This document shows, piece by piece, positions 1 through 33,717 of a stretch of DNA of 64,000 bases (position 1 is the first letter of the stretch; each line of letters begins with the position of its first letter). Both the position numbers and the translations under genes were made by a program. Origin of the DNA: a virus; the IMG/VR virus record IMGVR_UViG_3300045988_158059, positions 1 to 64,000 of that record; one strand, 5' to 3'. A model generated the notes under the pieces. The model was not told the DNA's origin. It worked only from the letters and a program-made list of their open reading frames with translations, and made no database searches.

Positions 1-1
1 C

Positions 2-361
2 TTATAATCCTCCTAAACAATTAATATATTGTTTAACATTGCCATTATCATATGTCTTTGTAATCAATACGGCAGACACTGTTTGTCCTATTCTTCCATG
101 ATATTTACGATATGTACTTTCATCACTAAGTGAATATTCCACTCCGTTATAGTCTACCGTAATTTCATACTCGGCATAATCTGTCCGAAATTGTGGAACA
201 TGATTAATTATACCTATGAAACGAGTTTCTTTCGGTTTATAGTATTCATTAACAATTTTGACTTTTACACTTTCTTCTTTCTTATCAATACATTTAGCGC
301 AACCAGTCAACATAAATGCACTGATAAGCAGAAGAATTAATATAGTAGTTACCTTTTTCAT
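2..361 (-). CDS. putative lipoprotein
   Basis: Hydrophobic N-terminal signal peptide ending in the lipobox-like LTGC. Stop codon at the window edge (2-4). Confidence 0.45.
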   Translation of the reverse strand: MKKVTTILILLLISAFMLTGCAKCIDKKEESVKVKIVNEYYKPKETRFIGIINHVPQFRTDYAEYEITVDYNGVEYSLSDESTYRKYHGRIGQTVSAVLITKTYDNGNVKQYINCLGGL

Positions 362-415
362 TTTGATTCCTCCTGCAGTTCCTTTCTTGCTTTCATAAGA
401 ATTTATATGTAACTC

Positions 416-700
416 CTACTGTCCTTTATGTCTTGACATATCGACTGTTGTTTTAAAATATTTACCAATTGTTGCAATTGTTGCACAAATAACAGGGATC
501 ATTGGTTTCGTAAATCTAGTTGTATTAAATATGATATTTAATCCATTAACCAATGCGTCCCCTACAAAAAATTTCAGTATACATCCACCTATGTAAGCAA
601 ACATAAATGATAATGCCGGACTAATAACAAGAGTGAAAATCGCAAGGATGATTACTGTAAACGCACCTATTCCTTCTAATGTATTATCTTTTCTGTTCAT
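416..700 (-). CDS. small integral membrane protein
   Basis: 94 aa with two or three hydrophobic helices. No recognisable motif. Confidence 0.4.
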   Translation of the reverse strand: MNRKDNTLEGIGAFTVIILAIFTLVISPALSFMFAYIGGCILKFFVGDALVNGLNIIFNTTRFTKPMIPVICATIATIGKYFKTTVDMSRHKGQ

Positions 701-1109
701 TTAATTCCTCCGAATCTTTTTCATATTCAACTACAATTACATGTAATCCATATCTTCTTGCAGTATCAATCATATTTTTTGTACCTCGCGATTCACCATC
801 CCAAAATGCGATCAACGTACCAGAGCCTGATTCTGATGCAAATTTTGCCATTTCATTATTACGTCTAGGGCCAGCAGACTTTCCATAAACTCCCCATAAC
901 GCTTGAAATCTTATAACGGAGTAACCATTATCAAACGCATAACATTCACCAAGCCTATCTGCACCTTTTGCACCACCACTGATAACTCTAATTTGCTGAG
1001 TGTTATTAACTTGATTCTCTTCGATATAATCTGACACAGTTTTCTTAAGCAAACGATAATCATCAAAATCTCGTGAACCGGCTATAATAATATTCATCGC
1101 CTCGCTCAT
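684..1109 (-). CDS. DUF2493 / SLOG-superfamily Rossmann-fold protein (DprA/LOG-like)
   Basis: IIAGSRDF...ISGGAKGADRLGE matches the GSRDW...HGGA.GAD signature of the phage-associated DUF2493 proteins. Overlaps the upstream ORF by 17 nt. Confidence 0.55.
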   Translation of the reverse strand: MSEAMNIIIAGSRDFDDYRLLKKTVSDYIEENQVNNTQQIRVISGGAKGADRLGECYAFDNGYSVIRFQALWGVYGKSAGPRRNNEMAKFASESGSGTLIAFWDGESRGTKNMIDTARRYGLHVIVVEYEKDSEELNEQKR

Positions 1110-1606
1110 TCATCCAGCCTCCATAATTCCACATCATAATCTTTAAGTTCCTCTTCAATGATTTTATAAACCATTTCCCAGTCTGCTCCCCCTCTTCCAC
1201 AACCAATCTTATACGGAAGTGCTACTGAAGTTCTACAAAGATCTTTTCCTTCTAGTCCATTTTTTTCACGCCATACTCCAAAATGTTGCGAAATATATCT
1301 TAAACCATATCTAAAAGCTTCAAGATCTGTATACTGTTTACCATCATATCCATATTTATTTTGTGCGAATAAAGACAATACAATTTGACCTCTATCTTTC
1401 AATAAATATGCATCACACGTTCCGAGTAGTTCTTCCGACTCGAACTTACAAAACTCACAAAACTTTCTATAGTGTTTATAAATGCCTTCATCATAATCTC
1501 TTAATGCTTTAGCGACTCCAGTGTTCATTTCTCCTTGGCAGTTAACCTGATGAATTATAAAATCTGTCTTTGCATTAACGATATTACCTTCAATAATTTT
1601 AATCAT
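1106..1606 (-). CDS. macro domain protein, TARG1/OARD1-like ADP-ribose (1''-phosphate) hydrolase
   Basis: IIHQVNCQGEMNTGVAKAL and LPYKIGCGRGGADWEMV parallel the CISEDCRMGAGIA and MPRIGCGLDRLQWENV blocks of TARG1/OARD1. The start is placed at the internal MIKIIEG (ATG 1604-1606), preceded by an AGGAAAAG ribosome-binding site; the longest-ORF start would overlap the upstream gene. Confidence 0.75.
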   Translation of the reverse strand: MIKIIEGNIVNAKTDFIIHQVNCQGEMNTGVAKALRDYDEGIYKHYRKFCEFCKFESEELLGTCDAYLLKDRGQIVLSLFAQNKYGYDGKQYTDLEAFRYGLRYISQHFGVWREKNGLEGKDLCRTSVALPYKIGCGRGGADWEMVYKIIEEELKDYDVELWRLDE

Positions 1607-1616
1607 AAATCTTTTC

Positions 1617-2024
1617 CTATAAATCCTGAAATGTAAACTTCTCGCCACAGGAGCAAATCACTTCTCCAATAGTTCCGATTGATGTTGGTGTAAAGCACCA
1701 TGTAAGAGAGCCGCCTATGCAACCATGTCCCATTGCTCTCTGTTCCATAGTTTTCAAACCATGTTTCTCAGCATCATGTTTTAATTCCCACTCTCTGATT
1801 TTCTCTTGTTCTTTTTCTGAAATTGGAAATCCTCTATACAGATCCTCTTTCGCTTTTTTCAGTTCTGCTTCCATTCTCTGCATTTCAGAATCTTTATAAT
1901 GCTCATCTTTGAGCTTCTTGTTTTCTTCTTCTAAGTATTTAATTCGTTTTTCATAAGTATCTGCTTTATCAACAATCCCCTGACAAAGATCTGAAACTGA
2001 ATCCGTAAAATATGTACTACTCAT
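1617..2024 (-). CDS. hypothetical coiled-coil protein with C-terminal Cys/His cluster
   Basis: K/E-rich heptad region, then GHGCIGG...CSCGEKF, possibly Zn-binding. Located between the macro and KptA genes. Confidence 0.4.
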   Translation of the reverse strand: MSSTYFTDSVSDLCQGIVDKADTYEKRIKYLEEENKKLKDEHYKDSEMQRMEAELKKAKEDLYRGFPISEKEQEKIREWELKHDAEKHGLKTMEQRAMGHGCIGGSLTWCFTPTSIGTIGEVICSCGEKFTFQDL

Positions 2025-2026
2025 TT

Positions 2027-2566
2027 TTATACCTCCTTCATTAAATATTTCACTGGAACCCTTTTAGTCAGCCAAACTCCATTTTTAGATAAGTAAAATT
2101 TGTATCCATCTTTGTACATCTGTTCACTATTGATAGAATAAACAACTTCTTTACCATGTCTCTTGCCGACAGCTTTGGCGGTTTCAACATCTTTTGACAA
2201 ATGAACATATAAACGACTTTTAGGAATCAGTCCATTCTGATCAATAGACGCTATATATTTCTCGCCAGTTCCATGATAAAGAATTTTAGGTGGCTCTTTC
2301 TCTTCCAGTTCTACATCTACCGGAATTGAATGTCCCTGATTCGCTCTGATCAATGTCTTGTCATCATTGAAAGAATATCGCTGCTTATTGTCAGTCCGTA
2401 CAATTTCCTCTAAAAATTCTTTGTTGAATCCGGGATTGTTTTTAGCGATACCCTGAATCAGTTCTTCTACATTCGCCCAACCATGTTCATCTATAGTAAT
2501 ACCAATAACTTCAGGCTTATGTCTTAATATAAGACTTATATATCTACTAATACTTTGTAAATTCAT
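2027..2566 (-). CDS. kptA: RNA 2'-phosphotransferase KptA/Tpt1 family (NAD-dependent)
   Basis: [14 protein letters not shown]...GL..D..GW; RANQGHS; LYHGT; YVHLS. These are the hallmark Tpt1/KptA motifs. AGAGGAG ribosome-binding site upstream. Confidence 0.8.
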
Positions 2567-2581
2567 TCTCTTTACTCCTCT

Positions 2582-3055
2582 TTACTCCATAAATGATGAA
2601 ACGTGTACAGTTACAAAATCACTATGTGCACGAATATAATCCAAAGTTTTTACTGTATCCTCTACAATTGCAATCTGAGACGGCTTAAGCCCAAGCTTTT
2701 GTTGCAGCGTCTGAAGCACAGTAAGTTTTTCTGTCTTTTCTAAAGTAAAATAGATATTATCATCCGGAAGGCCGTAATTATCTTTGATAAAAGCTCTTTT
2801 GCCGGGGATCTCACTGAAAGGACTCTTTGAACAAGCATATACTTTGTCAATACCTTTCTTTTGAATGAACTCTTGCATTAATTTAATCGGACGCACATCT
2901 TTATACGGATTCTCACTGGAAGCTACAAGTCTATCCCATTCATCATCAGTCATACTATGACTTAATTCAGAGAACTCATACGGAGCAAGTACTCCATCTA
3001 CATCCATTACTACAATCACATCATCTTTTAATAAATAATCTGTAATTTTACTCAT
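2582..3055 (-). CDS. HAD-superfamily phosphatase (Pnkp-phosphatase-like or nucleotidase-like)
   Basis: N-terminal VVMDVDGVLA carries the HAD motif I DxDG(T/V). Size (157 aa) is comparable to a stand-alone polynucleotide 3'-phosphatase domain. Confidence 0.5.
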   Translation of the reverse strand: MSKITDYLLKDDVIVVMDVDGVLAPYEFSELSHSMTDDEWDRLVASSENPYKDVRPIKLMQEFIQKKGIDKVYACSKSPFSEIPGKRAFIKDNYGLPDDNIYFTLEKTEKLTVLQTLQQKLGLKPSQIAIVEDTVKTLDYIRAHSDFVTVHVSSFME

Positions 3056-4523
3056 CTTTGTTTCCTCCGTTTAATCTTTCTCTAATGTCTTCAAATGTTT
3101 CTTTATTGCAAGCTTTCCCATCTACAAATACGGTACTTAACGCTCCGTCACGAAATACATCATTATACCCGTCTTCACACTGTAATTCTCCATTGTCATC
3201 GTAATATATACAACAACACCCTTTATGAGATTTTTTCAAATGACTCGTATCGGTTTTTGGATCTTTATAGATCATAATTGGCTCGCCATTGACAATTCCA
3301 TAGGTGGCTTTCATAGCAATACCAAACATATCTCTGGTTACAACAACCATATGTCCATCGGGTTCTATAACTGCTGAGAAGCAAAATGCTCCGACTCCGA
3401 ATACGATATTGTTTGCAGCAAATCCTTTTTTCTTCAGTTTTTCCCATACCTGCTTTACATTATTAAGAGTACATCCGTCCCCATAAATAATTCCAATGTG
3501 CGGATCAAGCACTTTATATCCCTTGCTATTTACTGTTCCGCCGAATGTATTCCAAAGCTTTTCAATTGTCTCTACAGCAATTTCTACCATATCTCCGGAA
3601 TCTGGACGAACCAGAAGTTTACCATTATGCTGCATGATTTCTTTTTTACAAGCCGGAAGAATATTATCAATCATATTCCAGTAATCATAAGTGTCAGATA
3701 CCATACTGAAAGATGCATTAGGATATAGTTCCGTAAGTAGTCTTTTTACAAATGTGATTTCATCACCGTCTACTGCATAATTTGAAGCCATAACTGAATG
3801 TTCTGTTGATACAGCACCAATTCCGATTCTTTTAGTCCAACAGCAAGCATCATAATACGTATCTATATAATCAATGGCCGGAATTGTACTTGTCTTATCA
3901 AATGATAATAACCAAGCAGATGAACATCTTACTGCCTCTTCCATACAAGACATTCCTCTCATACCAAAGTCTGAGCAGGCCATTTCAGGTCTTAAAAAGT
4001 CATCACAGGTCATTTTATAGTAGTCGTTTGCAAGTTCTCTATACATATGACCAATTGTTGCATGAGCACATGGTTTCCAGAGTTCAACCTGCAGGATACA
4101 TTCTATCCACTGTACTACCCAAGCAAAATCTGGATGTGTGTTTGTAATTTCGATGCATGGGATGCCCATTGGTACTAATGTTCCCTCCGGAATAGCACGT
4201 ATCTGAATTGGAAGATAACCTAATTTATGAAGTTTCATAATAGGCTCTAGGTCATAACTATTTCCTAACTGTATATCAATACTGTATTTATATGTATGCT
4301 CAACTTCTACTGCTGTTAATTCAAAAAAGTTTTTATTAAAATAATCAATCAGATATTCTTCAATAAATGCCTGTAGACCAAAGAATACCATTTTGTTCTG
4401 ATTCTTAAGCATTGATCGTCGTGGAGTCCAGTAGGAAACAAGTTTTGTTAATCCTTTTGGATAGATTTTATTATGAATTTGTTTATATGTATCTGAAAGT
4501 AAAATTGCTAAAGTATTATTCAT
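3048..4523 (-). CDS. nadV: nicotinamide phosphoribosyltransferase family (NadV/NAMPT-like or Namat-like)
   Basis: N-terminal LLSDTYKQIHNKIYPKGLTKLVSYWTPR parallels the NAMPT block [29 protein letters not shown]. 491 aa, typical for the family. Confidence 0.8.
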   Translation of the reverse strand: MNNTLAILLSDTYKQIHNKIYPKGLTKLVSYWTPRRSMLKNQNKMVFFGLQAFIEEYLIDYFNKNFFELTAVEVEHTYKYSIDIQLGNSYDLEPIMKLHKLGYLPIQIRAIPEGTLVPMGIPCIEITNTHPDFAWVVQWIECILQVELWKPCAHATIGHMYRELANDYYKMTCDDFLRPEMACSDFGMRGMSCMEEAVRCSSAWLLSFDKTSTIPAIDYIDTYYDACCWTKRIGIGAVSTEHSVMASNYAVDGDEITFVKRLLTELYPNASFSMVSDTYDYWNMIDNILPACKKEIMQHNGKLLVRPDSGDMVEIAVETIEKLWNTFGGTVNSKGYKVLDPHIGIIYGDGCTLNNVKQVWEKLKKKGFAANNIVFGVGAFCFSAVIEPDGHMVVVTRDMFGIAMKATYGIVNGEPIMIYKDPKTDTSHLKKSHKGCCCIYYDDNGELQCEDGYNDVFRDGALSTVFVDGKACNKETFEDIRERLNGGNKDE

Positions 4524-4532
4524 AACTCCTCC

Positions 4533-4874
4533 TTAATCATTCGCTTCTTTTACAAGCTCGTCCACATTGTCTTTCAAATATTGACTGACTTTAATATAAC
4601 CATCTGTATTATTCTTCTCTGCAAATCCTCTGAATTTTACTCTGGCAGGATAAGCATTTGAAACTGATCCGTCTTCTTCGATATCTACACAAATCGCCCA
4701 TCCGAATGTATGTAAAATCATATTAATCCACCAGAGAAATCCGTTATTCTTAAATTCTTCCCATGATTTCTTTTCTACCATTTGAATTTTCTTATACTTA
4801 TCACATGTACTATTCGGACTGCAATAACATCTATCATGTTTATGTACACACGTTTCGCAAATCTGTGCTTTCAT
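4533..4874 (-). CDS. hypothetical Cys-rich protein
   Basis: CETCVHKHDRCYCSPNSTCDKY cluster, possibly a Zn-binding module. No family recognised. Confidence 0.35.
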   Translation of the reverse strand: MKAQICETCVHKHDRCYCSPNSTCDKYKKIQMVEKKSWEEFKNNGFLWWINMILHTFGWAICVDIEEDGSVSNAYPARVKFRGFAEKNNTDGYIKVSQYLKDNVDELVKEAND

Positions 4875-4952
4875 ATACTATTTCTCCATTCCTCTTGCAT
4901 TCTTTCATATTTCACATTGATTCTCCGAAAAAAGATTGCTTTTTTGCATGTA

Positions 4953-5255
4953 TTATTCTTCAAATTCTTTCTGTGCCACAACTCTACAACCATAAAGTCC
5001 TAACAAATCATGTAAATCAAACTCTTCAATATCGTTCTCATCAGCAATCTTATCGCTATGCACAAGAATTTCATCATCCATCTCGGCAGCATGAATTGTC
5101 TGTCTAATAATACTTAACATAGTTTCAACTGCATACTCATAACCTTTAAGATTATCTTCATTCATATCACTCGTAATAGTGTCTTTCATTTTATTCATCT
5201 GTTCCTCTAAAAACTTTGGAACATTACAAACTGTAAACATCATTTCTTCATTCAT
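4953..5255 (-). CDS. hypothetical acidic protein
   Basis: ORF with codon usage consistent with its neighbours. No motif. Confidence 0.3.
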   Translation of the reverse strand: MNEEMMFTVCNVPKFLEEQMNKMKDTITSDMNEDNLKGYEYAVETMLSIIRQTIHAAEMDDEILVHSDKIADENDIEEFDLHDLLGLYGCRVVAQKEFEE

Positions 5256-5718
5256 CCTCTACTGGTTCATATTTTTTAAACAATCTACCCATTGTCAAAT
5301 GATTAAATTTACCCAAATCCATTGCACAAGCAACAACATTATGAGGTGTAGAAGCCCCAATAAATTCACATAAATATTCTGTTAATGATGAATATTCAAT
5401 ATCTGTTGATATTTCTTCATCCCCAGGTTTTCTAATCCATCCAATCATTTTCTTATGATTAATTGTTATTTCTCCTTTATCAAGTGAATATAATACACTA
5501 CCATTGCTACTTCTCCACCAAGCATCTTCACCTGCGAATTTAACAAATTCTTCTTCTGACATATCTGAGATCCTATTAAATGTTTCATCATACATTAACC
5601 AAACTTCATATCTATTACTCTTGTATGTGCATATCGCTCCACATTCTTTTTGGTAATCTAATAAATCTAATAATACAAAAAAGAATTGTTCAAGATTATT
5701 TCCTAAAATTTCTTTCAT
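5248..5718 (-). CDS. hypothetical protein
   Basis: 156 aa ORF in the operon. No motif. Confidence 0.35.
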   Translation of the reverse strand: MKEILGNNLEQFFFVLLDLLDYQKECGAICTYKSNRYEVWLMYDETFNRISDMSEEEFVKFAGEDAWWRSSNGSVLYSLDKGEITINHKKMIGWIRKPGDEEISTDIEYSSLTEYLCEFIGASTPHNVVACAMDLGKFNHLTMGRLFKKYEPVEDE

Positions 5719-5766
5719 TTTCTCACCACCCTAAAGGAATAATAATTTGTTTCATAATATTCCTCC

Positions 5767-6570
5767 TTATCTAAACCTCTCAACCAGTTCAATCTTAGGA
5801 CTTTCCAGATTTGTCAAGATCGTATCTGTCGTATAAATCTTCTCAATCAGTCCATTGTTTTTCAGAAGCTCTCCTTCATAAATAGTGTTTTCACAATGAG
5901 TTACATAAAGATAAATCTTACCTACACCGGCCTCTTTCAGCTTTTTAGCACTATAATAAAAAGTACCACCTTTGCTGCAGATATCATCTACAATCAGGAT
6001 GTCTTTACCTGGTAGCTGATCAATTTCACCTGATAAATCTAAGCCTTTAATCTCTCCGGTCTCCCAATCTCTATTCTTAATACCGAAAGCATATGGAAGA
6101 TGTACTGCTGAAGAATATCGCTTCATGGATCCCGCATCCGGATAAAACATCATAAGGTTATTACTCGCAATCTTCTTAACAGCATCCTCAATCATTCGAT
6201 TCGGGGATTCTACATGTACTTTATTAAATAATGCGGCAGATACATCAGAATGCGGATCTAAAACTTCTACTCTTCCAAAATGTAATGAATTAATAGTCTG
6301 AGCAAAATATTTTAAAGTAAATAATTCGTTCTCATGCTTGACTCGATCCATACGTGCATCTGGGATATAAGGCATATATAAATTAGGCACTACTCTATGA
6401 TCCCAACAATATCTAGTAATATATTCAACTGCTGTTAACTCTTCCATTGATTCAAAGAACCATTCAATATTATCTCTGCACCATCCTCCAATAGGAGGAA
6501 TATCCTTAAATAAGAATGTTCCATCCGGATATTTATCAAGTTTGATTTCTACGCCGTTTAATTTAATCAT
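5767..6570 (-). CDS. ribose-phosphate pyrophosphokinase-like (Prs/Adps family, type I PRTase fold)
   Basis: DILIVDDICSKGGT is the PRPP-binding loop. N-terminal domain as in Prs but shortened (267 aa). Confidence 0.7.
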   Translation of the reverse strand: MIKLNGVEIKLDKYPDGTFLFKDIPPIGGWCRDNIEWFFESMEELTAVEYITRYCWDHRVVPNLYMPYIPDARMDRVKHENELFTLKYFAQTINSLHFGRVEVLDPHSDVSAALFNKVHVESPNRMIEDAVKKIASNNLMMFYPDAGSMKRYSSAVHLPYAFGIKNRDWETGEIKGLDLSGEIDQLPGKDILIVDDICSKGGTFYYSAKKLKEAGVGKIYLYVTHCENTIYEGELLKNNGLIEKIYTTDTILTNLESPKIELVERFR

Positions 6571-7668
6571 TTAGTTCACCTCAAAATAAAAATATTTTAC
6601 TTCCCAATCGTCTTTAAATGTATCACGAACAGATAAAGCTATCTTTCCACATTCATTCATATGAGTCATAGCCAATGTCTTCCGACATGGGATTCCAGAG
6701 GTTTTTATGTCTGCTTGACATCTTTCATGTAATTCTTCCACATTTAACTTCCCATATCTTAAAGTATCCTGATGTGGATTTGGAACATTAGTTAAATCTT
6801 TTATGTCAGGATTAATTTCTTCCTTATTACATTCAGTTGGGAACGCACCGGCTCCATGCCGTGTCATATAGGTACGAGTCACATAACAGGCTTCTATATT
6901 GATTTCATCAGTCCAATTTACAGACTTTATAATTCTTGCAGGATTTTTAATACCAGTGTTGGATGGAGTAAGATGCGGATAATATTCAGTATTATTTTGA
7001 TCTAAAAGAAGCCCCTGCCCATTTTCAAATACTATGGTATCGTATCCATTAAGTAATTGATCATTACTTACAAAATGTACATGTGACATCATAAAATCAA
7101 GATCTTTATAGTAATGATCTCGAAGCCCAGGATTTTTTACGGGATGAAATAATTCTTCTTCCTGTTCAGATAATGTAATTCCCATATGTCTAAACATATC
7201 CATATAATATGACCATGACAATGAATATGAATTAATATGTTTTTTATAGCGTTGAATTGTATTATAAATCCCCATTCCACAGCTTCCGTGTTTATTGTTA
7301 CCACGACTTCGTTCAATAATTTGATTTGCCATCATATCAAAAGGATTTGTAATCATACATTTTTCATGAACATACACATGAGGTTCCCATCCTAATTTCT
7401 TTAACTCTTCCCATTCTTCCTTGAATACCAGAGGATTTAAAATAAAATCCTCCGGTAAATATGTATCTGCTCCATTTAATGTTCCAGAGCCGAAATGATG
7501 AAAGACATGCCGGGTTCCATCTGATTTTAATACTGTATGTCCTCTCTGAGCGCCGCCATTTGAACACACAACGATACAGTTATCTGCATTTTTAGTATAA
7601 TAATCTGTTAATTTACCCTTGCCCTCGTCACCAAAGTTTGCTCCGATGACAATTTTTATATCTTTCAT
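6571..7668 (-). CDS. adenylosuccinate synthetase family (PurA-like, possibly PurZ-like)
   Basis: GDEGKGK P-loop, GGAQRGHT (PurA GGHNAGHT), HGSCGMGI (PurA TTGRGIGP), FENGQGLLLD (PurA FEGAQGTLLD), GAGAFPTE. Only 365 aa; the C-terminal ~60 aa of bacterial PurA are absent. Confidence 0.8.
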   Translation of the reverse strand: MKDIKIVIGANFGDEGKGKLTDYYTKNADNCIVVCSNGGAQRGHTVLKSDGTRHVFHHFGSGTLNGADTYLPEDFILNPLVFKEEWEELKKLGWEPHVYVHEKCMITNPFDMMANQIIERSRGNNKHGSCGMGIYNTIQRYKKHINSYSLSWSYYMDMFRHMGITLSEQEEELFHPVKNPGLRDHYYKDLDFMMSHVHFVSNDQLLNGYDTIVFENGQGLLLDQNNTEYYPHLTPSNTGIKNPARIIKSVNWTDEINIEACYVTRTYMTRHGAGAFPTECNKEEINPDIKDLTNVPNPHQDTLRYGKLNVEELHERCQADIKTSGIPCRKTLAMTHMNECGKIALSVRDTFKDDWEVKYFYFEVN

Positions 7669-7680
7669 AAGTTATTCTCC

Positions 7681-8580
7681 TTACCAAACAATAGCTCCTG
7701 ATTCATCTGTCTCTGCAGAAATTACAGTGGATGAGACTACTACAGGTTCATTATTTTCTGCAGCCGCAACTACAATCTTTACAATTTCATCTGCAATATC
7801 ATCAAGACGATTAATGGTCCTAAAATGATTATCATCAAGATACTCTGAAAAAGACTCAACTATTCCTCTCTGGTCATATCCATCACGATGATTTACATTA
7901 ATGTGATAAATATCAAATTTCTCAGATGTTTCCATATATAAATCTTTAGTTTCTACATCGGCCTGAAGCGTATCGCCAGTTGTAATTCCTAATCCAGAGC
8001 GTCGTCCTGATACTGGTAAGTACGGATTAAGACGTTCGTCCCCAATTGTGATAATTACGCCTTTTTTACCCCTATTCCAACAATCAAGTTTTGTATGACG
8101 AGATCCAAAATACCAAGCAGCAGTATATGACTCGAAACAATTACCTCCGCCGCCAAATTCAAAATAGATTTTATCAAGCTGCTCCGCAATTCTAATATCG
8201 GATTCAAATTGTGATGCCTGAATTGGATAATTATCATATGCTAAATCACCAATACCCATAATCATAAATTCTACATCTTTAATCTGACCATATAATTTTG
8301 TCATGATTTCATTAAGTCTTTTTGCAATTTCTACTGCGGTCTGTCCCATAGATCCTGTGACATCCAAAGCTAAAATGACTGGTAAAGTATTCGGATGCTC
8401 TTCATTATCACAACATTCTCTAATAACACCTTTAGGATCGAGTGCTGCATCAATATTTTTTGCTTTAAACATTTCCTGATTAGAATAACTTCCTGTAACT
8501 ACTCCTCGTGAATCAGTGCCATATCCTTTTGATGTTGAATAACTTACAAAACTTCTAGTATCCCAACTTCCGCTTCCCAT
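7681..8580 (-). CDS. von Willebrand factor A (vWA) domain protein
   Basis: ALDVTGSM is the MIDAS DxSGS motif. Confidence 0.65.
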   Translation of the reverse strand: MGSGSWDTRSFVSYSTSKGYGTDSRGVVTGSYSNQEMFKAKNIDAALDPKGVIRECCDNEEHPNTLPVILALDVTGSMGQTAVEIAKRLNEIMTKLYGQIKDVEFMIMGIGDLAYDNYPIQASQFESDIRIAEQLDKIYFEFGGGGNCFESYTAAWYFGSRHTKLDCWNRGKKGVIITIGDERLNPYLPVSGRRSGLGITTGDTLQADVETKDLYMETSEKFDIYHINVNHRDGYDQRGIVESFSEYLDDNHFRTINRLDDIADEIVKIVVAAAENNEPVVVSSTVISAETDESGAIVW

Positions 8581-9223: not shown

Positions 9224-9778
9224 TTAATTTCTATTGATTACATTAATCTGGCAGCTTTCCATTACATCAAGAGCCGCTTTATGCTTTTCCGGTGTTGATC
9301 CTGCGCAGCATGATGCATCCACTGTGATTTTTGCCTCTGGATAATAAGTTTTAATCAAAAGAGCGTTCGTAATAACACAAATGTCTGTGCATACTCCAAT
9401 AATTTCAATATCTAATAAAGAAGAATCATATGCGATACCAAATGTTTCTTCCCAATCCCAGTCATCAAATCCAAAAGTAGATTTACAACATACCATAAAA
9501 CTATCGAGATTTTTATAATCAAGTTCATCAACAATTTCCCAACCTTTAGTACCATACATACAATGTTCAGGAAGTTTTCTGCCCTCTGAAGTATCTGCGT
9601 AATCTGAATGATGAGTATCCTTTGTAAGAATTACATAGTTCTTATTATTCTTATATTCATCAAATTTCTTTTTCACATTTGGTACAATAGCTTGTGCTTC
9701 CGGTGTTCCAAGAACTCCTGTCACAAAATCATTCTGCACATCAATTACAATCAGAACTTTCTTCTTCTCTTTTTCCAT
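9224..9778 (-). CDS. isochorismatase-family hydrolase (nicotinamidase PncA-like)
   Basis: VLIVIDVQNDF and IIGVCTDICV (catalytic Cys) are the isochorismatase/PncA signatures. Start placed at MEKEKKK (ATG 9776-9778), preceded by a GGGAG ribosome-binding site. Confidence 0.7.
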   Translation of the reverse strand: MEKEKKKVLIVIDVQNDFVTGVLGTPEAQAIVPNVKKKFDEYKNNKNYVILTKDTHHSDYADTSEGRKLPEHCMYGTKGWEIVDELDYKNLDSFMVCCKSTFGFDDWDWEETFGIAYDSSLLDIEIIGVCTDICVITNALLIKTYYPEAKITVDASCCAGSTPEKHKAALDVMESCQINVINRN

Positions 9779-10100
9779 TTTTATTCTCCCATTCTTTAAT
9801 TTGCTGTGCTCCATCTTCAACTTGCTGCTTATCATGTCTTGAATAATTATCTGCTGGACCATAAGCACCTTTATGTCGATATGAAGCATGTCCTTTACGA
9901 GTATTAGTTTTTACTGCAGTACCACCTCGACCAAGCAAACCATTATGACCTTTTGCTAATATACCAGATTTAAATTCAGGTTCATCAATCCATTCTCCAA
10001 GATATCTTCCGGAATATTTTTGGCCCTTAATTAATCTGCGTCTCTTTTTAATACTTTTTAACCTTTGTTCTCTCAAATATCCTCTTTTACGTTCCGGCAT
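9741..10100 (-). CDS. hypothetical basic protein
   Basis: Arg/Lys-rich 119 aa. GGAGG ribosome-binding site 7 nt upstream of the ATG. Confidence 0.4.
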   Translation of the reverse strand: MPERKRGYLREQRLKSIKKRRRLIKGQKYSGRYLGEWIDEPEFKSGILAKGHNGLLGRGGTAVKTNTRKGHASYRHKGAYGPADNYSRHDKQQVEDGAQQIKEWENKNGKREEESSDCN

Positions 10101-14713: not shown

Positions 14714-16890
14714 TACATTGATTTCCTCTCTGCGATTTCAACCATCTTCGCTTTATTTAATCGTGTATCTCCATGGACTCTACTATAAGACAAATATCCA
14801 TTCATACGGTCAATCTTTGTCAGATTCTTGGAACCACAGACCGGACACACGTCCATTTCAAGTTCCTCATGCCCACAGTCATCACAATAGGCAAGTGAAA
14901 GATTTACACCTTCATAATATCCCAGAGACATGGCTCTTCTAACTAATGTAACTACGGCCTCACGATTATAATTGATTGGATACCGAACATATTGAATTTT
15001 GCCTCCATTAAACAGATCCCAGAATCTATTTTCTAAATCCTGCTTCTGAATCGGTGTAATATCTTCCCACACTCCACAGTGGAAACTGTTGCTCACATAT
15101 TCTCTGTCAGAAACCCCTTTCACAATGCCATACATTTTACGGAATTGTTCTACCTGAAGCCCGCAAAGGCTCTCGGCTGGAGTTCCATAAATCGCATATA
15201 ATAATCCATCCTCATGTTTAAATTGAGTAATCTTTTTATTAATGTATTTCATTACATCTACAGCAAACTTACCATCCTCAACTAATGACTTCTTATTATA
15301 AAGTTCCTGCAATTCATTCAAAGCAGTAATTCCAAATGATAAAGTCATAGGTTTAAGAATTGAACGTATTTTTTCATCTGGTTTTAAATAACCATTAAGG
15401 AAACCACCTTCACAGTATGCCAATGGATTCGTACTAGCTTTCATTTCACCAATATAGTCATATGTTCTCTTATGAATGCTACGTATCATCTCAAGATAAT
15501 AATCCAATACTTCATAGAAATCTCTACTTTCACGCTGCGCTTTTGCCAAAATCATTGGAAGATGAAGGCTTACAACACCAAGATTGAAACGTCCTTCAAA
15601 AATTGCTTTATCGTTCTCATCCTCCGGTTCTATTCCACCTTTTTCATACCAAGGGCTTAAGAATGCACGACATCCCATTGGACTAACAACCGTACCATAT
15701 TTTTTGTACATACTTGGTACATATCCTTCACCTGTTAAAGATAACCAGTCTGGATACATTGTCTTCATACTACATTCAATACCTGCATTAAATACATCTT
15801 CATTAACCTTTCCTGGTCCATGTAACTTCTCATCATATAAAAATACCAATTTGGGGAATAACACAGGTTTCTTATTACCGGCTTTACCTTGGCCTTCTTT
15901 ATGAACATTTAAGAATGTAATAGAAGCCATTTTACCAAATTTTGTGGTTGAGAGACCGAATGTCATTGTTACAAATGGATAATCACCTCTTGATGATCCT
16001 ACAGTATTTAACTTATATTCAATTCCCTGCCAGCCCTGTTCAAAATCACGTTTTACTTTATTTGTTGCATATTCACAAGCTTTTTCTTCAATCAAATGTT
16101 CTGATGTTGAAAAAGCATCAACATAAACACCATCAATATCGGAATCAAAAACTTCAAAAAATTCTTTATAATATTTCTGATAACTTTTTTCTGCATATGG
16201 TTCCAAAATCTTGTCTACTTCCGGTACTGTGAATCCGCCATACTGCTGTGCAGCAGTGCTCAGGATAATATCACCCATAACATCAAACGCAGTATCCAGT
16301 GTCTTAGGCTCATTGTACCATACATTTCCCATCTCAAATCCGCCGCTGAGTACAGATGCCACATCAAAGAGACAGCAGTTCATGGTATCCAGACGTGCAG
16401 ACTGGTCATGAATATAAATATAACCATCTTTACATGCCTGAAGTTCATTACGATTCATAAAAAATTTACGATAAAGCTCTTTGTTCAGTTCATTAAAGAT
16501 CAGGCTTCGCTTTGTAGCTACAAGCGCACTGTCTGTATTGGCATTACTCTTATCACCAATATAACGGATTGCCTGACTCTTGGTGAAAACGTCATCCATC
16601 ATATGAACAAATTCTTTCTTATAATTACGATAATCTTTATAAGACTTTGCAATCTTTGGATTAAATTCATCCAATGCGGATTCTACTGCATTATGTAATT
16701 CTTCTACTGTACATGTGGTATTTTCATCTATGTCATCAGCAATAAGCTCGTCCCAAACAAGATCTATGATTCTTTTATAATCATCATTTGTTAACTCGAC
16801 CATTACTCGTGATGCTGACTTATTTACGGCATCAACAATTTTCTGATCGTTAAAAGGTTCAACTGTTAAATCCTTTTTAACTACATTCAT
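14713..16890 (-). CDS. nrdD: anaerobic ribonucleoside-triphosphate reductase (class III)
   Basis: 725 aa; C-terminal Zn ribbon CDDCGHE...CPVCG and the glycyl-radical-like RMNGYLSY. ATG verified at 16888-16890. Confidence 0.9.
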   Translation of the reverse strand: MNVVKKDLTVEPFNDQKIVDAVNKSASRVMVELTNDDYKRIIDLVWDELIADDIDENTTCTVEELHNAVESALDEFNPKIAKSYKDYRNYKKEFVHMMDDVFTKSQAIRYIGDKSNANTDSALVATKRSLIFNELNKELYRKFFMNRNELQACKDGYIYIHDQSARLDTMNCCLFDVASVLSGGFEMGNVWYNEPKTLDTAFDVMGDIILSTAAQQYGGFTVPEVDKILEPYAEKSYQKYYKEFFEVFDSDIDGVYVDAFSTSEHLIEEKACEYATNKVKRDFEQGWQGIEYKLNTVGSSRGDYPFVTMTFGLSTTKFGKMASITFLNVHKEGQGKAGNKKPVLFPKLVFLYDEKLHGPGKVNEDVFNAGIECSMKTMYPDWLSLTGEGYVPSMYKKYGTVVSPMGCRAFLSPWYEKGGIEPEDENDKAIFEGRFNLGVVSLHLPMILAKAQRESRDFYEVLDYYLEMIRSIHKRTYDYIGEMKASTNPLAYCEGGFLNGYLKPDEKIRSILKPMTLSFGITALNELQELYNKKSLVEDGKFAVDVMKYINKKITQFKHEDGLLYAIYGTPAESLCGLQVEQFRKMYGIVKGVSDREYVSNSFHCGVWEDITPIQKQDLENRFWDLFNGGKIQYVRYPINYNREAVVTLVRRAMSLGYYEGVNLSLAYCDDCGHEELEMDVCPVCGSKNLTKIDRMNGYLSYSRVHGDTRLNKAKMVEIAERKSM

Positions 16891-17471
16891 AACGATTTCT
16901 CCTTTTCCATTTCACTCTTAAGTAAGTCACATAATGCTTCTGCAGCTTTCGAAAAGCTCATATCATTCACAAACAAGTGGTCATACCCTTCAGCTTCTTC
17001 ATATTTAGTGAATTGTTCATCTTCACTGTTATATCTGGAGTAAAATTCTTCTTCTGATCCATCTCTTTTAAGGAACCTGTCTTTTGCTAATTCAAATGGT
17101 GAAGAAAAATAAATCTCGATAAATTTAAATTCATCTTTGCAATGTTCTTTCAAATACTTTGCTCCGTTCGGATCAATTACATAAATATCTGAATTCACAA
17201 TTTCATTATATGTAGTGCCATATTTAATTCCGTTGATTTCAGTATACGCTACAAAGCCTTCTTTAAATTTAATTTCATCGAATTCACTCTCAGATACAAA
17301 GTAATGATCTTCATATCCTGTTATTTCATCTTTGCGCGGCAGTCTTGTTGTAATGCTTTTTACCTGTCGAAGTCCTAATGTCTCGCATATATATCTTGCA
17401 AGTGATGATTTACCAGAAGCGGTTCTTCCAATAAATAAAAATACTAACTTCTTATGCATTATTTGTTTCAT
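16887..17471 (-). CDS. gmk: guanylate kinase-like nucleoside monophosphate kinase
   Basis: GRTASGKSS P-loop plus TTRLPRKDEITGYEDHYFVSESEFDE...YGT, the guanylate-kinase signature. Start uncertain (MKQIMHKK versus MHKK). Confidence 0.7.
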   Translation of the reverse strand: MKQIMHKKLVFLFIGRTASGKSSLARYICETLGLRQVKSITTRLPRKDEITGYEDHYFVSESEFDEIKFKEGFVAYTEINGIKYGTTYNEIVNSDIYVIDPNGAKYLKEHCKDEFKFIEIYFSSPFELAKDRFLKRDGSEEEFYSRYNSEDEQFTKYEEAEGYDHLFVNDMSFSKAAEALCDLLKSEMEKEKSL

Positions 17472-32073: not shown

Positions 32074-32994
32074 TTACTTTGCTCCAGTCGGACCGAGAAT
32101 AATCTCTCGTGCGTAATTCATCGAAATAACGGAACAGAATTTTCCAAAATATTGTCCTGCTGCTCGAACTACTTCCGGTTCTTCTTTTACACAATCTGTA
32201 TAAATTCTGTTTGGAAGATTCCTTGCAACAGTTTTCATATCCTGTTCACACCACTCTGTTGGGATGATTCCTTCATCACGCATTTTATATAACTCTTTTT
32301 CAACTCTACGCCGCGTCACGACAGATTTTACAAGTTCCTGTGCTTCTGTTCGTTCTTGCAACTTTTGCGGATCCTGAATCTTTTTAACATGATTCATTTT
32401 TGCAACTTCATGAAATTTATCTCCAACGATTTTCACTACAAATGGTAATCTGCTATTCGGATCGTTTAATCTTGTTTGGTTCTTTATAACAATACCTTCT
32501 TGAATTTCTCCATATCCCGGATGATCCATAAAACTTTGTACATGTTCCCAACTGACAAACGGTCCAACATAAAATGTATTGATATATGTAAGTCCATGCG
32601 TTTCTGCAAATGCCTTTACTTCTGACTGAGGAAGATATTTTTCTTCCCTTACATCATAAATATCAAATACGTACCATTTCTTAGTATTTTCTGGATAATA
32701 AATAATCGCATTTCTTGCTCCAGACCATTCTCCAAATATTACATAGTCCGGAACGTCTTTATAATCTTCAGGATTTAACTCCTGCACATAATTATAAAAA
32801 CCATTTAATGTATTGTTCTGATTCAACGTATGTCTTCTGGAAAAAGCTACCATTTTGCCAGTCTCTGCATCATATCTAGCTGCTGCATTAGATCCATCAA
32901 ATTTTTCCTGGATAACAATTAAGTCACCCGGTACAAATCCATCTGCATATCCTTCTTTCAGACGTTGAATATCCATAAATTTCTTCTGCTCCAT
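32074..32994 (-). CDS. ATP-dependent RNA ligase (covalent nucleotidyltransferase, KxDG)
   Basis: VIQEKFDGSNAAARYD is the KxDG(S/T) motif I of RNA/DNA ligases. Size and layout fit the Rnl-type ligases. Confidence 0.6.
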   Translation of the reverse strand: MEQKKFMDIQRLKEGYADGFVPGDLIVIQEKFDGSNAAARYDAETGKMVAFSRRHTLNQNNTLNGFYNYVQELNPEDYKDVPDYVIFGEWSGARNAIIYYPENTKKWYVFDIYDVREEKYLPQSEVKAFAETHGLTYINTFYVGPFVSWEHVQSFMDHPGYGEIQEGIVIKNQTRLNDPNSRLPFVVKIVGDKFHEVAKMNHVKKIQDPQKLQERTEAQELVKSVVTRRRVEKELYKMRDEGIIPTEWCEQDMKTVARNLPNRIYTDCVKEEPEVVRAAGQYFGKFCSVISMNYAREIILGPTGAK

Positions 32995-33501: not shown

Positions 33502-33578
33502 GTTTACTGCCTCCTTAAATATACATTTCAGTAGTTACTATTTTCTTCTGTAATGATCCGCGCGACATCATTACAAAT

Positions 33579-33648
33579 ATGACACAATTGGATTCGAACC
33601 AATATTTCAGCTTAAAAAGCCACGTTCTTTCCGTTAGACTATATGTCA
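33579..33648 (-). tRNA. tRNA-Lys(UUU) candidate (weak stems)
   Basis: Reverse complement reads TGACATATAGTCTAACGGAAAGAACGTGGCTTTTTAAGCTGAAATATTGGTTCGAATCCAATTGTGTCA. Acceptor TGACATA/TGTGTCA, perfect T-arm ATTGG-TTCGAAT-CCAAT, anticodon loop TTTTTAA. The D stem and anticodon stem are poor. Confidence 0.45.
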
Positions 33649-33717
33649 TCTTTTTTTTACATGCATGACCTGTCGTACTGCAGTCACAACAGGATTATGT
33701 GTACTTATTCTTTCTCC

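What the first reader, a model, noticed from the sequence alone, without database searches (positions are those of the whole stretch)
1106..3055. Tpt1/KptA plus an Appr-1''-p-type macro domain plus a HAD phosphatase: a complete 2'-phosphate RNA processing chain in a phage
**Evidence.** KptA/Tpt1 (2027-2566) consumes NAD+ to remove RNA 2'-phosphates and releases ADP-ribose 1''-2'' cyclic phosphate, which is processed to Appr-1''-p. Macro domains of the Poa1/TARG1 type dephosphorylate Appr-1''-p. These two genes sit 420 nt apart, followed by a Pnkp-phosphatase-sized HAD enzyme (VVMDVDGVLA).

**Links.** Together with the KxDG RNA ligase (32074-32994), and less securely the guanylate-kinase-like P-loop kinase (16887-17471), this suggests a yeast/plant-type RNA healing-and-sealing pathway that leaves a 2'-PO4 junction. 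The phage also carries its own tRNA-Lys(UUU) candidate, the classic target of PrrC-type anticodon nucleases. I do not know of a phage-encoded Tpt1, so this looks unusual.
Basis: partly seen in the sequence, partly recalled or inferred. Interest (0 to 1): 0.7.

Follow-up and report, generated by a model that had tools for sequence, protein, structure and literature searches.

The report
Phage NAD-rebuilding operon carrying KptA
The three genes are real, but they form the tail of a known kind of phage operon that rebuilds NAD+ after bacterial immune attack, here unusually carrying an inserted RNA 2'-phosphotransferase and a small phosphatase, so this is not a self-contained yeast-style RNA repair pathway.

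Summary
All three domain calls hold. KptA/Tpt1 (2027-2566) passes the curated thresholds and keeps the catalytic tetrad. The 1106-1606 protein is a TARG1/DarG/Poa1p-type macro domain. The 2582-3055 protein is a catalytically complete HAD phosphatase.

The next gene (3048-4523) is a Namat-type enzyme. Its best solved relative is SPbetaL1 Namat, and an Adps-like gene lies at 5767-6570. The macro protein is homologous to the phosphatase that sits between Adps and Namat in Vibrio phages. That arrangement is NARP1-AP, a published anti-defence pathway that rebuilds NAD+.

The nearest outgroups have Adps-Namat-macro contiguous. In this lineage HAD-KptA-ORF135 is inserted between Namat and macro in every related contig that reaches those genes. 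In 7 of 35 relatives HAD is fused in frame to Namat.

The "complete" RNA chain is not present. I found no cyclic phosphodiesterase and no polynucleotide kinase. The RNA ligase is not Trl1-type, and the kinase is a guanylate kinase in a nucleotide-metabolism cluster.

Phage Tpt1 is already known: a PHROG family, 98 GenBank phage records and a 2022 survey. An RNA-repair role for KptA stays plausible, because a sister lineage links KptA to a CCA-adding/HD enzyme. KptA inside NARP1-AP appears undescribed.

The parts
5767..6570 (-). Adps-like gene (PRPS-fold ADP-ribose pyrophosphokinase of NARP1), annotated elsewhere as ribose-phosphate pyrophosphokinase
   Evidence: phrog_619 E 9e-68. Far below every NCBIfam Prs cutoff, e.g. 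89.9 bits against 113. Pfam PF14572 26.2 bits against 27. 33% identical over 219 aa to the Adps-position gene of Vibrio phage 184E37-2. Homologous to the ICP1 and Felix-O1-type phage genes.
4533..5718 (-). Three small ORFs (5248-5718, 4953-5255, 4533-4874) in a variable cargo slot between Adps and Namat
   Evidence: Present in only 3 of 35 related loci. The Adps-Namat gap varies from 382 to 1247 nt among relatives. PHROGs of unknown function.
3048..4523 (-). Namat-type nicotinamide ADP-ribose transferase (Nampt fold)
   Evidence: Best PDB hits are 9W5X/9W5W, the SPbetaL1 Namat: E 4e-118, 398 bits, against 203 bits for human NAMPT (PDB identities from PMC12774641). 42% identical to the experimentally validated FADO and SPbetaL1 Namat. 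The SCH motif is GAFCFS + a 10-aa insert + VVTRD, against GSFTYQYNTRD in SPbetaL1.
2582..3055 (-). Orphan-family HAD phosphatase. It overlaps Namat by 8 nt (ATGAGTAA) and is fused in frame to Namat in some relatives
2027..2566 (-). KptA/Tpt1 NAD+-dependent RNA 2'-phosphotransferase
   Evidence: 77-80% identical to homologues from Blautia and other gut contigs; the Blautia wexlerae protein P0114 is 77% identical.
1617..2024 (-). Conserved 135-aa ORF of unknown function (N-terminal coiled coil, C-terminal Cys/His-rich region), always between KptA and macro
   Evidence: Present at 74-100% identity in all 34 related loci that extend past KptA on that side. No Pfam, PHROG or NCBIfam match and no hit in GenBank phages.
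1106..1606 (-). Adpp-like macro domain (predicted ADPR-1''-phosphate phosphatase)
   Evidence: phrog_335 'phosphatase' E 4e-37. 29% identical over full length, pairwise E 2e-24, to the phosphatase between Adps and Namat in Vibrio phage 184E37-2. Fold neighbours are DarG, TARG1 and Poa1p. The invariant His19 appears to match Poa1p His23; this rests on a motif comparison made from memory.
684..1109 (-). SLOG-fold YspA-type protein (predicted nucleotide/ADPR-derivative binding); its start overlaps the macro stop by 4 nt
   Evidence: PF10686 E 2e-13. phrog_289 E 7e-30. Conserved in most relatives.
416..700 (-). Conserved 94-aa ORF at the end of the block
   Evidence: 90-100% identical in relatives.
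9224..9889 (-). Isochorismatase-family protein (nicotinamidase-like) in the same island
   Evidence: PF00857 E 1e-22. A homologue lies directly upstream of Adps in L097.
32074..32994 (-). ATP-dependent RNA ligase (KFDG motif) of unclassified subfamily; a possible partner in tRNA repair
   Evidence: PF09414 E 2e-26. phrog_548 E 6e-61. The Rnl3, Rnl5 and Rnl2 models are all far below cutoff.
33578..33649 (-). tRNA-Lys(UUU)
   Evidence: ARAGORN.

Best explanation
Window 416-6570 is an extended NARP1-AP operon of a roughly 150-180 kb human-gut phage. NARP1-AP is the NAD+ reconstitution pathway 1 with an associated phosphatase.

The core pathway, known from homologues: host immune NADases split NAD+ into nicotinamide plus ADPR, or RES-type enzymes make ADPR-1''-phosphate. 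The macro protein (Adpp-like) removes the 1''-phosphate. Adps pyrophosphorylates ADPR using ATP. Namat joins ADPR-PP to nicotinamide to remake NAD+.

In this lineage three genes (HAD, KptA, ORF135) have been inserted between Namat and the macro gene.

KptA is an intact Tpt1-family enzyme. [quoted passage not shown] The same compound forms by spontaneous decay of ADPR-PP in NARP1.

My inference is that KptA sits in this operon so that its NAD+ cost is refunded. Once the cyclic phosphate is opened, the macro phosphatase, Adps and Namat can turn the by-products back into NAD+.

The most likely macromolecular substrate of KptA is RNA carrying a 2'-phosphate, formed while nuclease-cut tRNA is repaired.

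The HAD is a small-molecule or RNA-end phosphatase that works physically with Namat. Its substrate is unknown.

Shown here: gene identities, catalytic residues, folds, operon conservation, the fusion, and the outgroup architecture. Inferred: every enzymatic activity, the recycling loop, and the RNA substrate.
For: - Namat: the best solved relative is SPbetaL1 Namat (398 bits, against 203 for human NAMPT). It is 42% identical to the FADO and SPbetaL1 Namat, both experimentally validated.
- Adps: the gene fails every canonical Prs cutoff and lies four genes from Namat. That meets the operational NARP1 definition.
- Macro: it is homologous over its full length to the phosphatase located between Adps and Namat in Vibrio phages. 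That is the architecture shown experimentally for phage Gary Adpp.
- Outgroups L097 and MT835544.1 have Adps-Namat-macro contiguous, without HAD, KptA or ORF135.
- All 35 loci with KptA at 92% identity or more keep the Namat-HAD-KptA-ORF135-macro order wherever the contig reaches those genes. HAD-KptA and ORF135-macro spacers are under 20 nt, and KptA-ORF135 is under 45 nt in all but one locus.
- No terminator-like site lies inside the block on the coding strand downstream of Namat. The only coding-strand terminator-like match in the island is at 5359-5342, inside the variable cargo ORFs, and site counts equal the shuffled expectation.
- Namat and HAD are fused in frame in 7 of 35 relatives and in representative P0361.
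- KptA is catalytically intact.
- ADPR-cyclic-phosphate is a known NARP1 side product.
- RNA link: in a related phage lineage, KptA-u183-CCA-adding enzyme with HD domain is conserved in 10 of 12 loci. The window also encodes an RNA ligase beside four tRNA genes.
- The phage encodes an NAD+-dependent DNA ligase, so it needs NAD+ for its own replication.
Against: - No enzyme that opens the 1'',2''-cyclic phosphate was found, so the recycling loop has a missing step. ORF135 has no detectable enzyme signature.
- The Namat selectivity-helix motif is only partly conserved and carries a 10-aa insert. Relatives also encode NMNAT, NadE and a nicotinamidase-like protein. The enzyme may therefore also or instead work as Nampt.
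- Most phage KptA genes (Erwinia, Clostridioides, the L053 group) are not near NARP1, so the linkage is lineage-specific and could be a neutral insertion.
- No known bacterial or phage pathway produces internal RNA 2'-phosphates.
- The window ends at the island, so part of the operon cannot be seen.
Confidence: 0.6

Rival explanations
1. This is a dedicated yeast/plant-type heal-and-seal pathway. The HAD acts as a Pnkp-like 3'-phosphatase. The P-loop kinase phosphorylates 5'-OH ends. The KxDG ligase seals the break and leaves a 2'-PO4 junction. KptA removes that phosphate, and the macro domain exists to clear the resulting Appr-1''-p.
For: - KptA is intact.
- The macro domain is of the Poa1p type.
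- Weak HAD_SAK_2 and PNK3P hits occur for the window protein and for distant family members.
- A 47%-identical HAD homologue lies about 1.5 kb from an Rnl1-type ligase plus a kinase-HD gene in another phage lineage.
- An RNA ligase and tRNA-Lys are present.
- The idea has been published as a prediction.
Against: - No cyclic phosphodiesterase or polynucleotide kinase was found.
- The kinase is a full-length guanylate-kinase match sitting between NrdD and thymidylate synthase.
- The ligase is 30 kb away and is not Trl1/Rnl1-type.
- The similarity of HAD to Pnkp is no better than to phosphoserine phosphatase, MDP-1 or 5'-nucleotidases. The best Pfam link among distant family members is NT5C, E 6e-10.
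- HAD is fused to Namat in relatives.
- The macro gene belongs to the NARP1-AP cassette in outgroups that have no adjacent KptA.
Confidence: 0.15
2. A writer/eraser pair. KptA ADP-ribosylates 5'-phosphate ends of RNA or DNA (a known side activity of Tpt1 enzymes) to cap or inactivate nucleic acids. The TARG1/DarG-like macro domain removes nucleic-acid-linked ADP-ribose, including host DarT-type marks on phage DNA.
For: - The closest structural matches of the macro protein are DarG and TARG1, which are nucleic-acid and protein ADP-ribosyl hydrolases.
- Tpt1/KptA 5'-phosphate ADP-ribosylation, and its reversal by TARG1-type macro domains, is documented.
- The phage also carries an ARH-family hydrolase next to its tRNA genes.
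- NADAR genes recur within a few kb of KptA in several lineages.
Against: - The macro protein shares its family-specific motifs with the NARP1-AP phosphatase family, and in outgroups it sits directly after Namat.
- The catalytic Lys of DarG/TARG1 could not be mapped here.
- Capping is a minor activity of Tpt1 enzymes in vitro (my own knowledge of the literature).
Confidence: 0.1
3. Neutral hitch-hiking. HAD, KptA and ORF135 are unrelated accessory genes that landed in a permissive slot of the NAD island, and they have no functional coupling to NARP1 or to each other.
For: - The island has a demonstrably variable cargo slot between Adps and Namat.
- KptA is 77-80% identical to homologues on gut contigs, among them integrase-flanked Blautia wexlerae elements and GmrSD_N-flanked viral contigs. 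This suggests recent lateral acquisition.
- Other phage KptA genes sit in unrelated neighbourhoods.
Against: - The five-gene order and the short spacers are invariant across 35 contigs, whereas the neighbouring slot varies.
- HAD overlaps Namat or is fused to it.
- Every partner uses or makes NAD+ or ADPR-phosphate species.
- A second lineage keeps KptA within 6 kb of an Adps-Namat-macro-NADAR cassette.
Confidence: 0.15

Closest known systems
NARP1-AP (Adps - Adpp macro phosphatase - Namat) of Vibrio phage Gary; Osterman et al., bioRxiv 10.64898/2026.01.28.702374
   Same: - Adps-like and Namat-like genes lie within a few genes of each other.
- There is a Poa1p-like macro protein homologous to the phosphatase of the Vibrio operons.
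- The predicted function is the same: rebuilding NAD+ from ADPR or ADPR-1''-P plus nicotinamide.
   Different: - The gene order is Adps...Namat-HAD-KptA-ORF135-macro, not Adps-macro-Namat.
- Three extra genes are embedded.
- HAD overlaps Namat or is fused to it.
- The Namat selectivity helix carries a 10-aa insert.
- No activity has been tested for this locus.
NARP1 of Bacillus phages SPbetaL1 and FADO (Osterman et al. 2024; Namat structures 9W5X/9W5W)
   Same: The Namat is 42% identical to these and they are its best solved relatives. The partner is a PRPS-fold protein that is not a canonical Prs.
   Different: The window locus adds the macro, HAD, KptA and SLOG genes. The clamp residue R40 is Met here, and the third aromatic residue of the SCH motif is unclear.
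Yeast tRNA-splicing by-product pathway: Tpt1 -> Cpd1 (2H cyclic phosphodiesterase) -> Poa1p
   Same: A Tpt1 homologue with an intact tetrad and a Poa1p-type macro domain are encoded 421 nt apart.
   Different: No Cpd1/2H equivalent and no Trl1-type ligase or kinase were found. The by-product would be fed back into NAD+ rather than discarded.
Predicted phage KptA-2H-Macro-NADAR RNA-repair networks (Iyer, Burroughs, Anantharaman, Aravind 2022, PMC9503650)
   Same: A phage-encoded KptA occurs together with macro, SLOG and (in relatives) NADAR genes, plus an RNA ligase elsewhere in the genome.
   Different: That survey, as far as I read it, does not place KptA inside an Adps/Namat operon. No held paper mentions both KptA and NARP1.
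T4 Pnkp 3'-phosphatase domain
   Different: No kinase domain is fused or adjacent. The similarity is no higher than to many unrelated HADs. The window protein has a short cap insert with invariant His/Trp/Tyr residues, and it is fused to Namat in relatives.

Membership tests
Tpt1/KptA RNA 2'-phosphotransferase | Sequence match above curated thresholds (Pfam PF01885; NCBIfam equivalog) | tested here: met
   PF01885 164.6 bits against 26. NF002014 261 bits against 239.
Tpt1/KptA RNA 2'-phosphotransferase | Catalytic Arg-His-Arg-Arg tetrad | tested here: met
   R15, H16, R63 and R118 align without gaps to Runella Tpt1 R16, H17, R64 and R119. They are invariant in the phage and bacterial alignment.
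Tpt1/KptA RNA 2'-phosphotransferase | NAD+-dependent removal of RNA 2'-PO4 with release of ADPR 1'',2''-cyclic phosphate | not testable with these tools
   Needs a biochemical assay.
Macro domain, TARG1/DarG/Poa1p clade; Adpp (ADPR-1''-P phosphatase of NARP1-AP) | Macro fold with closest neighbours in the TARG1/DarG/Poa1p clade | tested here: met
   Model pLDDT 88.7. Foldseek: DarG 1e-10, TARG1 1e-9, Poa1p 2e-9.
Macro domain, TARG1/DarG/Poa1p clade; Adpp (ADPR-1''-P phosphatase of NARP1-AP) | Pfam Macro family score above gathering threshold | tested here: not met
   15.4 bits against 22. Full-length homologues at 43-50% identity do carry PF01661, so the miss reflects divergence.
Macro domain, TARG1/DarG/Poa1p clade; Adpp (ADPR-1''-P phosphatase of NARP1-AP) | Homology to the phosphatase encoded between Adps and Namat in NARP1-AP phages | tested here: met
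   29% identity over full length, pairwise E 2e-24, to the Vibrio phage 184E37-2 gene. Shared motifs are HxxNCQG, AQxxYGYDGKxY and GCxRxGG. phrog_335 E 4e-37. I did not make a direct comparison with the assayed phage Gary protein.
Macro domain, TARG1/DarG/Poa1p clade; Adpp (ADPR-1''-P phosphatase of NARP1-AP) | Gene located in the immediate vicinity of a NARP1 gene (the original study scanned genes up to two positions from each NARP1 system) | tested here: inconclusive
   In the window it is the fourth gene after Namat, with HAD, KptA and ORF135 between. In outgroups L097 and MT835544.1 it directly follows Namat.
Macro domain, TARG1/DarG/Poa1p clade; Adpp (ADPR-1''-P phosphatase of NARP1-AP) | ADPR-1''-phosphate phosphatase activity | not testable with these tools
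   Needs an assay with ADPR-1''-P.
NARP1 (Adps + Namat) | PRPS-like and Nampt-like genes within ten genes of each other in a phage | tested here: met
   Genes at 5767-6570 and 3048-4523, with three small ORFs between them. Definition taken.
NARP1 (Adps + Namat) | Nampt-like protein belongs to the Namat clade, not the Nampt clade | tested here: met
   398 bits to SPbetaL1 Namat against 203 to human NAMPT. FADO and SPbetaL1 are among the top phage hits. I did not build a tree that includes the NARP2 Nampt of KVP40.
NARP1 (Adps + Namat) | Namat selectivity-clamp helix signature GS-X-phi-X-phi-X-phi-TRD with aromatic X | tested here: inconclusive
   The window has GAFCFS + a 10-residue insert + VVTRD. 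The first two aromatic residues are present and the third is unclear. SCL residue Arg40 is Met.
NARP1 (Adps + Namat) | PRPS-like protein is not a canonical ribose-phosphate diphosphokinase | tested here: met
   All 11 NCBIfam Prs models are far below cutoff. The PDB PRPS matches cover only residues from about 65 to 260.
HAD phosphatase superfamily | Four catalytic motifs (DxD nucleophile, S/T, K, acidic pair) and a Rossmannoid HAD fold | tested here: met
T4 Pnkp-type polynucleotide 3'-phosphatase | Specific similarity to the Pnkp phosphatase domain beyond the generic HAD level | tested here: not met
T4 Pnkp-type polynucleotide 3'-phosphatase | Fused or adjacent polynucleotide 5'-kinase | tested here: not met
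   The neighbours are Namat and KptA. No Pnk-type kinase was found in the scanned ORFs.
Yeast/plant Trl1-type healing and sealing | Ligase of the Trl1/Rnl1 type, a 2H cyclic phosphodiesterase and a polynucleotide kinase | tested here: not met
   The ligase is PF09414-type; PF09511 is only at E 0.006. No 2H enzyme or Pnk was detected in the window. Genes outside the 64-kb window could not be examined.

The most novel reading that the evidence does not exclude
KptA and a Namat-coupled HAD phosphatase were recruited into a NARP1-AP operon to form a closed loop. An NAD+-consuming RNA (or nucleotide) 2'-phosphate removal step is paid for by immediate resynthesis of NAD+ from its own by-products, nicotinamide and ADPR cyclic phosphate. 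The HAD and/or ORF135 would supply a so far unknown step, for example opening or dephosphorylating ADPR cyclic, 2''- or 1''-phosphates, or removing pyrophosphate. If true, this would give the first physiological setting for a bacterial-type Tpt1, whose substrate outside fungal and plant tRNA splicing has long been unknown. It would also add new enzymes to the phage NAD+ reconstitution repertoire.
Probability: 0.25. Interest if true: 0.75.

Novelty: new variant of a known kind. Interest (0 to 1): 0.5.

Why it matters
NAD+ depletion is one of the commonest bacterial anti-phage strategies, and NARP pathways are the phage answer to it. This locus would extend the known NARP1-AP cassette with two further enzymes. 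One of them, KptA/Tpt1, has had no known substrate in bacteria for decades. That combination makes two questions testable:
- What does a bacterial-type Tpt1 act on during infection?
- Do phages recycle ADPR cyclic and 1''-phosphate species from several sources (RES-type NAD+ phosphorolysis, ADPR-PP decay, Tpt1 turnover) through one salvage route?

The naturally fused Namat-HAD allele points to a specific, assayable partnership.

As originally stated, though, the finding (a phage Tpt1 plus macro as an RNA-repair chain) is an already published prediction, not a new class.

Tried and rejected
1. Nucleotide similarity to isolated phages: megablast of 1-8000 found nothing.
2. Search for the missing RNA-repair enzymes. 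About 57 ORFs were scanned with PHROGs, Pfam or NCBIfam. No 2H/LigT enzyme, no polynucleotide kinase and no CCA-adding enzyme turned up.
   - The 448-aa ORF at 37965-39311, the size of a CCA enzyme, is an NMT1/THI5-like binding protein with an OmpA domain.
   - The 182-aa ORF next to NADAR in relative L001 has no paired HxT/S motifs by eye.
3. PurZ (Z-genome) reading of 6571-7668. The PHROG name suggests it, but the NCBIfam PurZ model scores 48.5 against 300, PurA models are also below cutoff, and no PurZ entry appeared among the PDB hits. I left it as 'PurA-like, unclassified'.
   - Namat fusion;
   - near an Rnl1 ligase plus a kinase-HD gene;
   - in unrelated bacterial neighbourhoods.
5. 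ORF135: no family, no phage homologue, and no similarity to the ORF following KptA in L097.
6. A general KptA-NARP1 linkage across phages is not supported. phiCD211, Ea35-70 and the loci with KptA at 63-80% identity lack NARP genes nearby, except the L097 group.
7. Direct comparison with the assayed phage Gary Adpp. That phage was not among the listed hits, so I used the architecturally identical Vibrio phage 184E37-2 instead.
8. The Namat-HAD fusion as a sequencing artefact: rejected. Seven contigs share a distinct 14-nt-longer junction in which the ATG is changed to ATA.

Full report
**1. What is at the coordinates**

All genes in the window are on the minus strand. In transcription order the block reads:
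- Adps-like gene, 5767-6570
- three small ORFs
- Namat-like gene, 3048-4523
- HAD, 2582-3055
- KptA, 2027-2566
- a 135-aa ORF, 1617-2024
- macro, 1106-1606
- SLOG/YspA, 684-1109
- a 94-aa ORF, 416-700

From Namat onward the spacers are 2-15 nt or the genes overlap. Namat and HAD overlap in ATGAGTAA, and macro and SLOG overlap by 4 nt. Promoter-like and terminator-like sites occur at the frequency seen in shuffled sequence. The single coding-strand terminator-like match (5359-5342) lies upstream, inside the variable cargo ORFs. The layout is therefore consistent with one transcription unit.

**2. The three proteins of the finding**

KptA is secure:
- PF01885, E 3e-48.
- It passes the NCBIfam equivalog cutoff, 261 bits against 239.
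- PHROG 5470, E 2e-84.
- An ungapped alignment to Runella Tpt1 keeps all four catalytic residues.

The macro protein misses the Pfam threshold. Three results still identify it as a macro domain:
- Its full-length homologues at 43-50% identity are Pfam Macro proteins.
- PDB sequence hits are the DarG macrodomains, Poa1p and TARG1.
- A confident model matches DarG, TARG1 and Poa1p first.

**3.

The gene immediately upstream of HAD is a Nampt-fold protein. Its best solved relatives are 9W5X/9W5W (E 4e-118, 398 bits, against 203 bits for human NAMPT). These entries are the Namat of Bacillus phage SPbetaL1. Among isolated phages, the experimentally validated NARP1 phages FADO and SPbetaL1 are among its best matches, at 42% identity.

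The PRPS-like gene at 5767-6570 fails every canonical Prs cutoff. It is homologous to the phage 'ribose-phosphate pyrophosphokinase' family that includes the ICP1 and Felix-O1-type genes. Together the two genes meet the operational definition of NARP1.

The macro protein is homologous over its full length (pairwise E 2e-24) to the 'phosphatase' encoded between Adps and Namat in Vibrio phage 184E37-2. That three-gene layout is NARP1-AP. In phage Gary its Poa1p-like macro protein (Adpp) was shown to convert ADPR-1''-phosphate to ADPR, which lets NARP1 overcome RES-domain NAD+ phosphorolysis.

**4. Comparative evidence**

I fetched eighty viral contigs that encode KptA relatives.
- Among the 35 with KptA at 92% identity or more, every contig that extends far enough keeps Adps...Namat-HAD-KptA-ORF135-macro(-SLOG). 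HAD-KptA and ORF135-macro spacers are under 20 nt, and KptA-ORF135 is under 45 nt in all but one locus.
- The Adps-Namat interval varies from 382 to 1247 nt.
- In 7 of 35, Namat and HAD are one in-frame ORF with a distinct junction sequence. A further NAPRTase-HAD fusion appears among cluster representatives.

The nearest outgroups carry Adps-Namat-macro contiguously, without HAD, KptA or ORF135. These are L097, with Namat 70% and macro 48% identical, and MT835544.1. HAD-KptA-ORF135 is therefore best read as an insertion into a pre-existing NARP1-AP cassette.

A relative (L001) shows that the island continues beyond the window edge with NADAR, NAD synthase, an NMNAT-type nucleotidyltransferase and more. 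The window's own phage lacks the NADAR insert.

**5. Is there an RNA link?**

Evidence against a complete RNA-repair chain:
- The window has an ATP-dependent RNA ligase next to four tRNA genes, but the ligase is an unclassified PF09414 member, not Trl1/Rnl1-type.
- No cyclic phosphodiesterase or polynucleotide kinase was found.
- The proposed kinase is a guanylate kinase that sits between NrdD and thymidylate synthase.

Evidence for some RNA link:
- A related phage lineage shares a 64%-identical homologue of window 44600-46666. There KptA is followed by a 183-aa ORF and a CCA-adding tRNA nucleotidyltransferase with an HD domain, in 10 of 12 loci. That KptA lies about 6 kb upstream of PncA-Adps-Namat-macro-NADAR.
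- One locus has a homologue of the window's ligase 6 kb from KptA.
- A HAD homologue lies near an Rnl1 ligase and a kinase-HD gene in another lineage.

An RNA-end or tRNA-repair substrate for KptA therefore remains the most likely reading. It rests on context and on family knowledge only.

**6. Mechanism proposed**

The steps known from homologues are:
- macro: ADPR-1''-P to ADPR;
- Adps: ADPR to ADPR-PP;
- Namat: ADPR-PP plus nicotinamide to NAD+.

From established Tpt1 chemistry, each KptA turnover consumes one NAD+ and yields nicotinamide plus ADPR 1'',2''-cyclic phosphate. The same cyclic species arises from spontaneous decay of ADPR-PP in NARP1.

I infer that KptA was fixed in this operon because its by-products are substrates, one ring-opening step removed, of the surrounding salvage enzymes. 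The ring-opening enzyme is not identified. ORF135 and the HAD are the only unassigned conserved genes in the block.

The fusion to Namat argues that the HAD acts on a small molecule of this pathway rather than on RNA ends. This is not proven.

**7. Comparison with what is known, and novelty**

Phage Tpt1 is not new:
- PHROG 5470.
- 98 GenBank phage records, many annotated as RNA 2'-phosphotransferase, including phiCD211, Ea35-70 and Bacillus phage G.
- An explicit published model of KptA working with 2H, Macro and NADAR domains in phage tRNA repair.

NARP1 and NARP1-AP are also published. What I could not find described is KptA, or this HAD, embedded in a NARP1-AP operon. No held paper mentions both KptA and NARP1. 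I therefore rate the locus as a new variant of a known kind, of moderate interest.

**8. Limits**

- No activity was or could be tested.
- The window cuts the island.
- The Namat clamp motif is only partly conserved, and relatives also carry NMNAT and NadE, so a Nampt-type role cannot be excluded.
- The match between macro His19 and Poa1p His23 rests on a motif comparison I made from memory of the Poa1p sequence, together with the PDB mutant names.

Noticed in passing
window 34279-35058 (with tRNAs at 33578-33649, 35142-35217, 35659-35738, 37103-37189 and the RNA ligase at 32074-32994): An ARH-family ADP-ribosylglycohydrolase (PF03747, E 2e-28) lies between tRNA-Lys and tRNA-Met, about 1.3 kb from the RNA ligase. 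This is a second ADP-ribose-removing enzyme, embedded in the tRNA/ligase cluster.
   Followed up: partly
window 47409-49409: An NAD+-dependent DNA ligase (phrog_3869, E 2e-176). The phage's own replication needs NAD+, which gives a direct reason to carry NAD+ reconstitution genes.
   Followed up: no
window 37965-39311, 42126-42737, 42730-43476: A phage-borne ABC importer: an ATPase, a BPD_transp_1 permease, and an NMT1/THI5-like substrate-binding protein fused to an OmpA domain. It might import a vitamin or pyridine precursor. The substrate is unknown.
   Followed up: partly
window 6571-7668: An adenylosuccinate-synthetase-like protein directly upstream of Adps. The PHROG name suggests PurZ (2-aminoadenine genomes), but it is far below the NCBIfam PurZ and PurA cutoffs and has no PurZ hit in the PDB. 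Its function is unclear.
   Followed up: partly
window 4533-5718; related loci L018-L052: There is a variable cargo slot between Adps and Namat, with a gap of 382-1247 nt among relatives. The window's three small ORFs occur in only 3 of 35 related contigs.
   Followed up: yes
L001 8039-9985 and six other related loci; window 3048-3055: A natural in-frame Namat-HAD fusion allele (648 aa) is present in 7 of 35 relatives. Its junction is ...GGAAACAAAAAAACAAAGATAAGT..., against the window's overlapping ...GGAAACAAAGATGAGTAA....
   Followed up: yes
L085-L097 (e.g. L097 9959-13384): In a related phage lineage, KptA is followed by a 183-aa ORF and a CCA-adding tRNA nucleotidyltransferase with an HD domain. 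This is conserved in 10 of 12 loci. The window has no homologue of that enzyme.
   Followed up: yes
L004-L007 (Blautia wexlerae and gut contigs) and L053: KptA homologues 77-80% identical to the window's sit beside a tyrosine integrase, HNH, PemK toxin and GmrSD_N-domain genes. These are mobile-element or defence-island-like settings that suggest recent lateral exchange of KptA.
   Followed up: partly
L001 12711-13139, many L018-L052 loci, L072, L078, L079: NADAR genes recur within 1.5-9 kb of KptA in several lineages. The window's own phage lacks the 182-aa + NADAR pair that L001 has between the 94-aa ORF and the lipoprotein gene.
   Followed up: partly
window 49843-50754 and 52074-53102: Two tyrosine-integrase-family genes lie close together in a large phage genome.
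   Followed up: no
window 18523-19296: An HD-domain protein with an ExoX-like C-terminal motif lies next to thymidylate synthase, guanylate kinase and NrdD. It is possibly a dNTP or nucleotide hydrolase.
   Followed up: no
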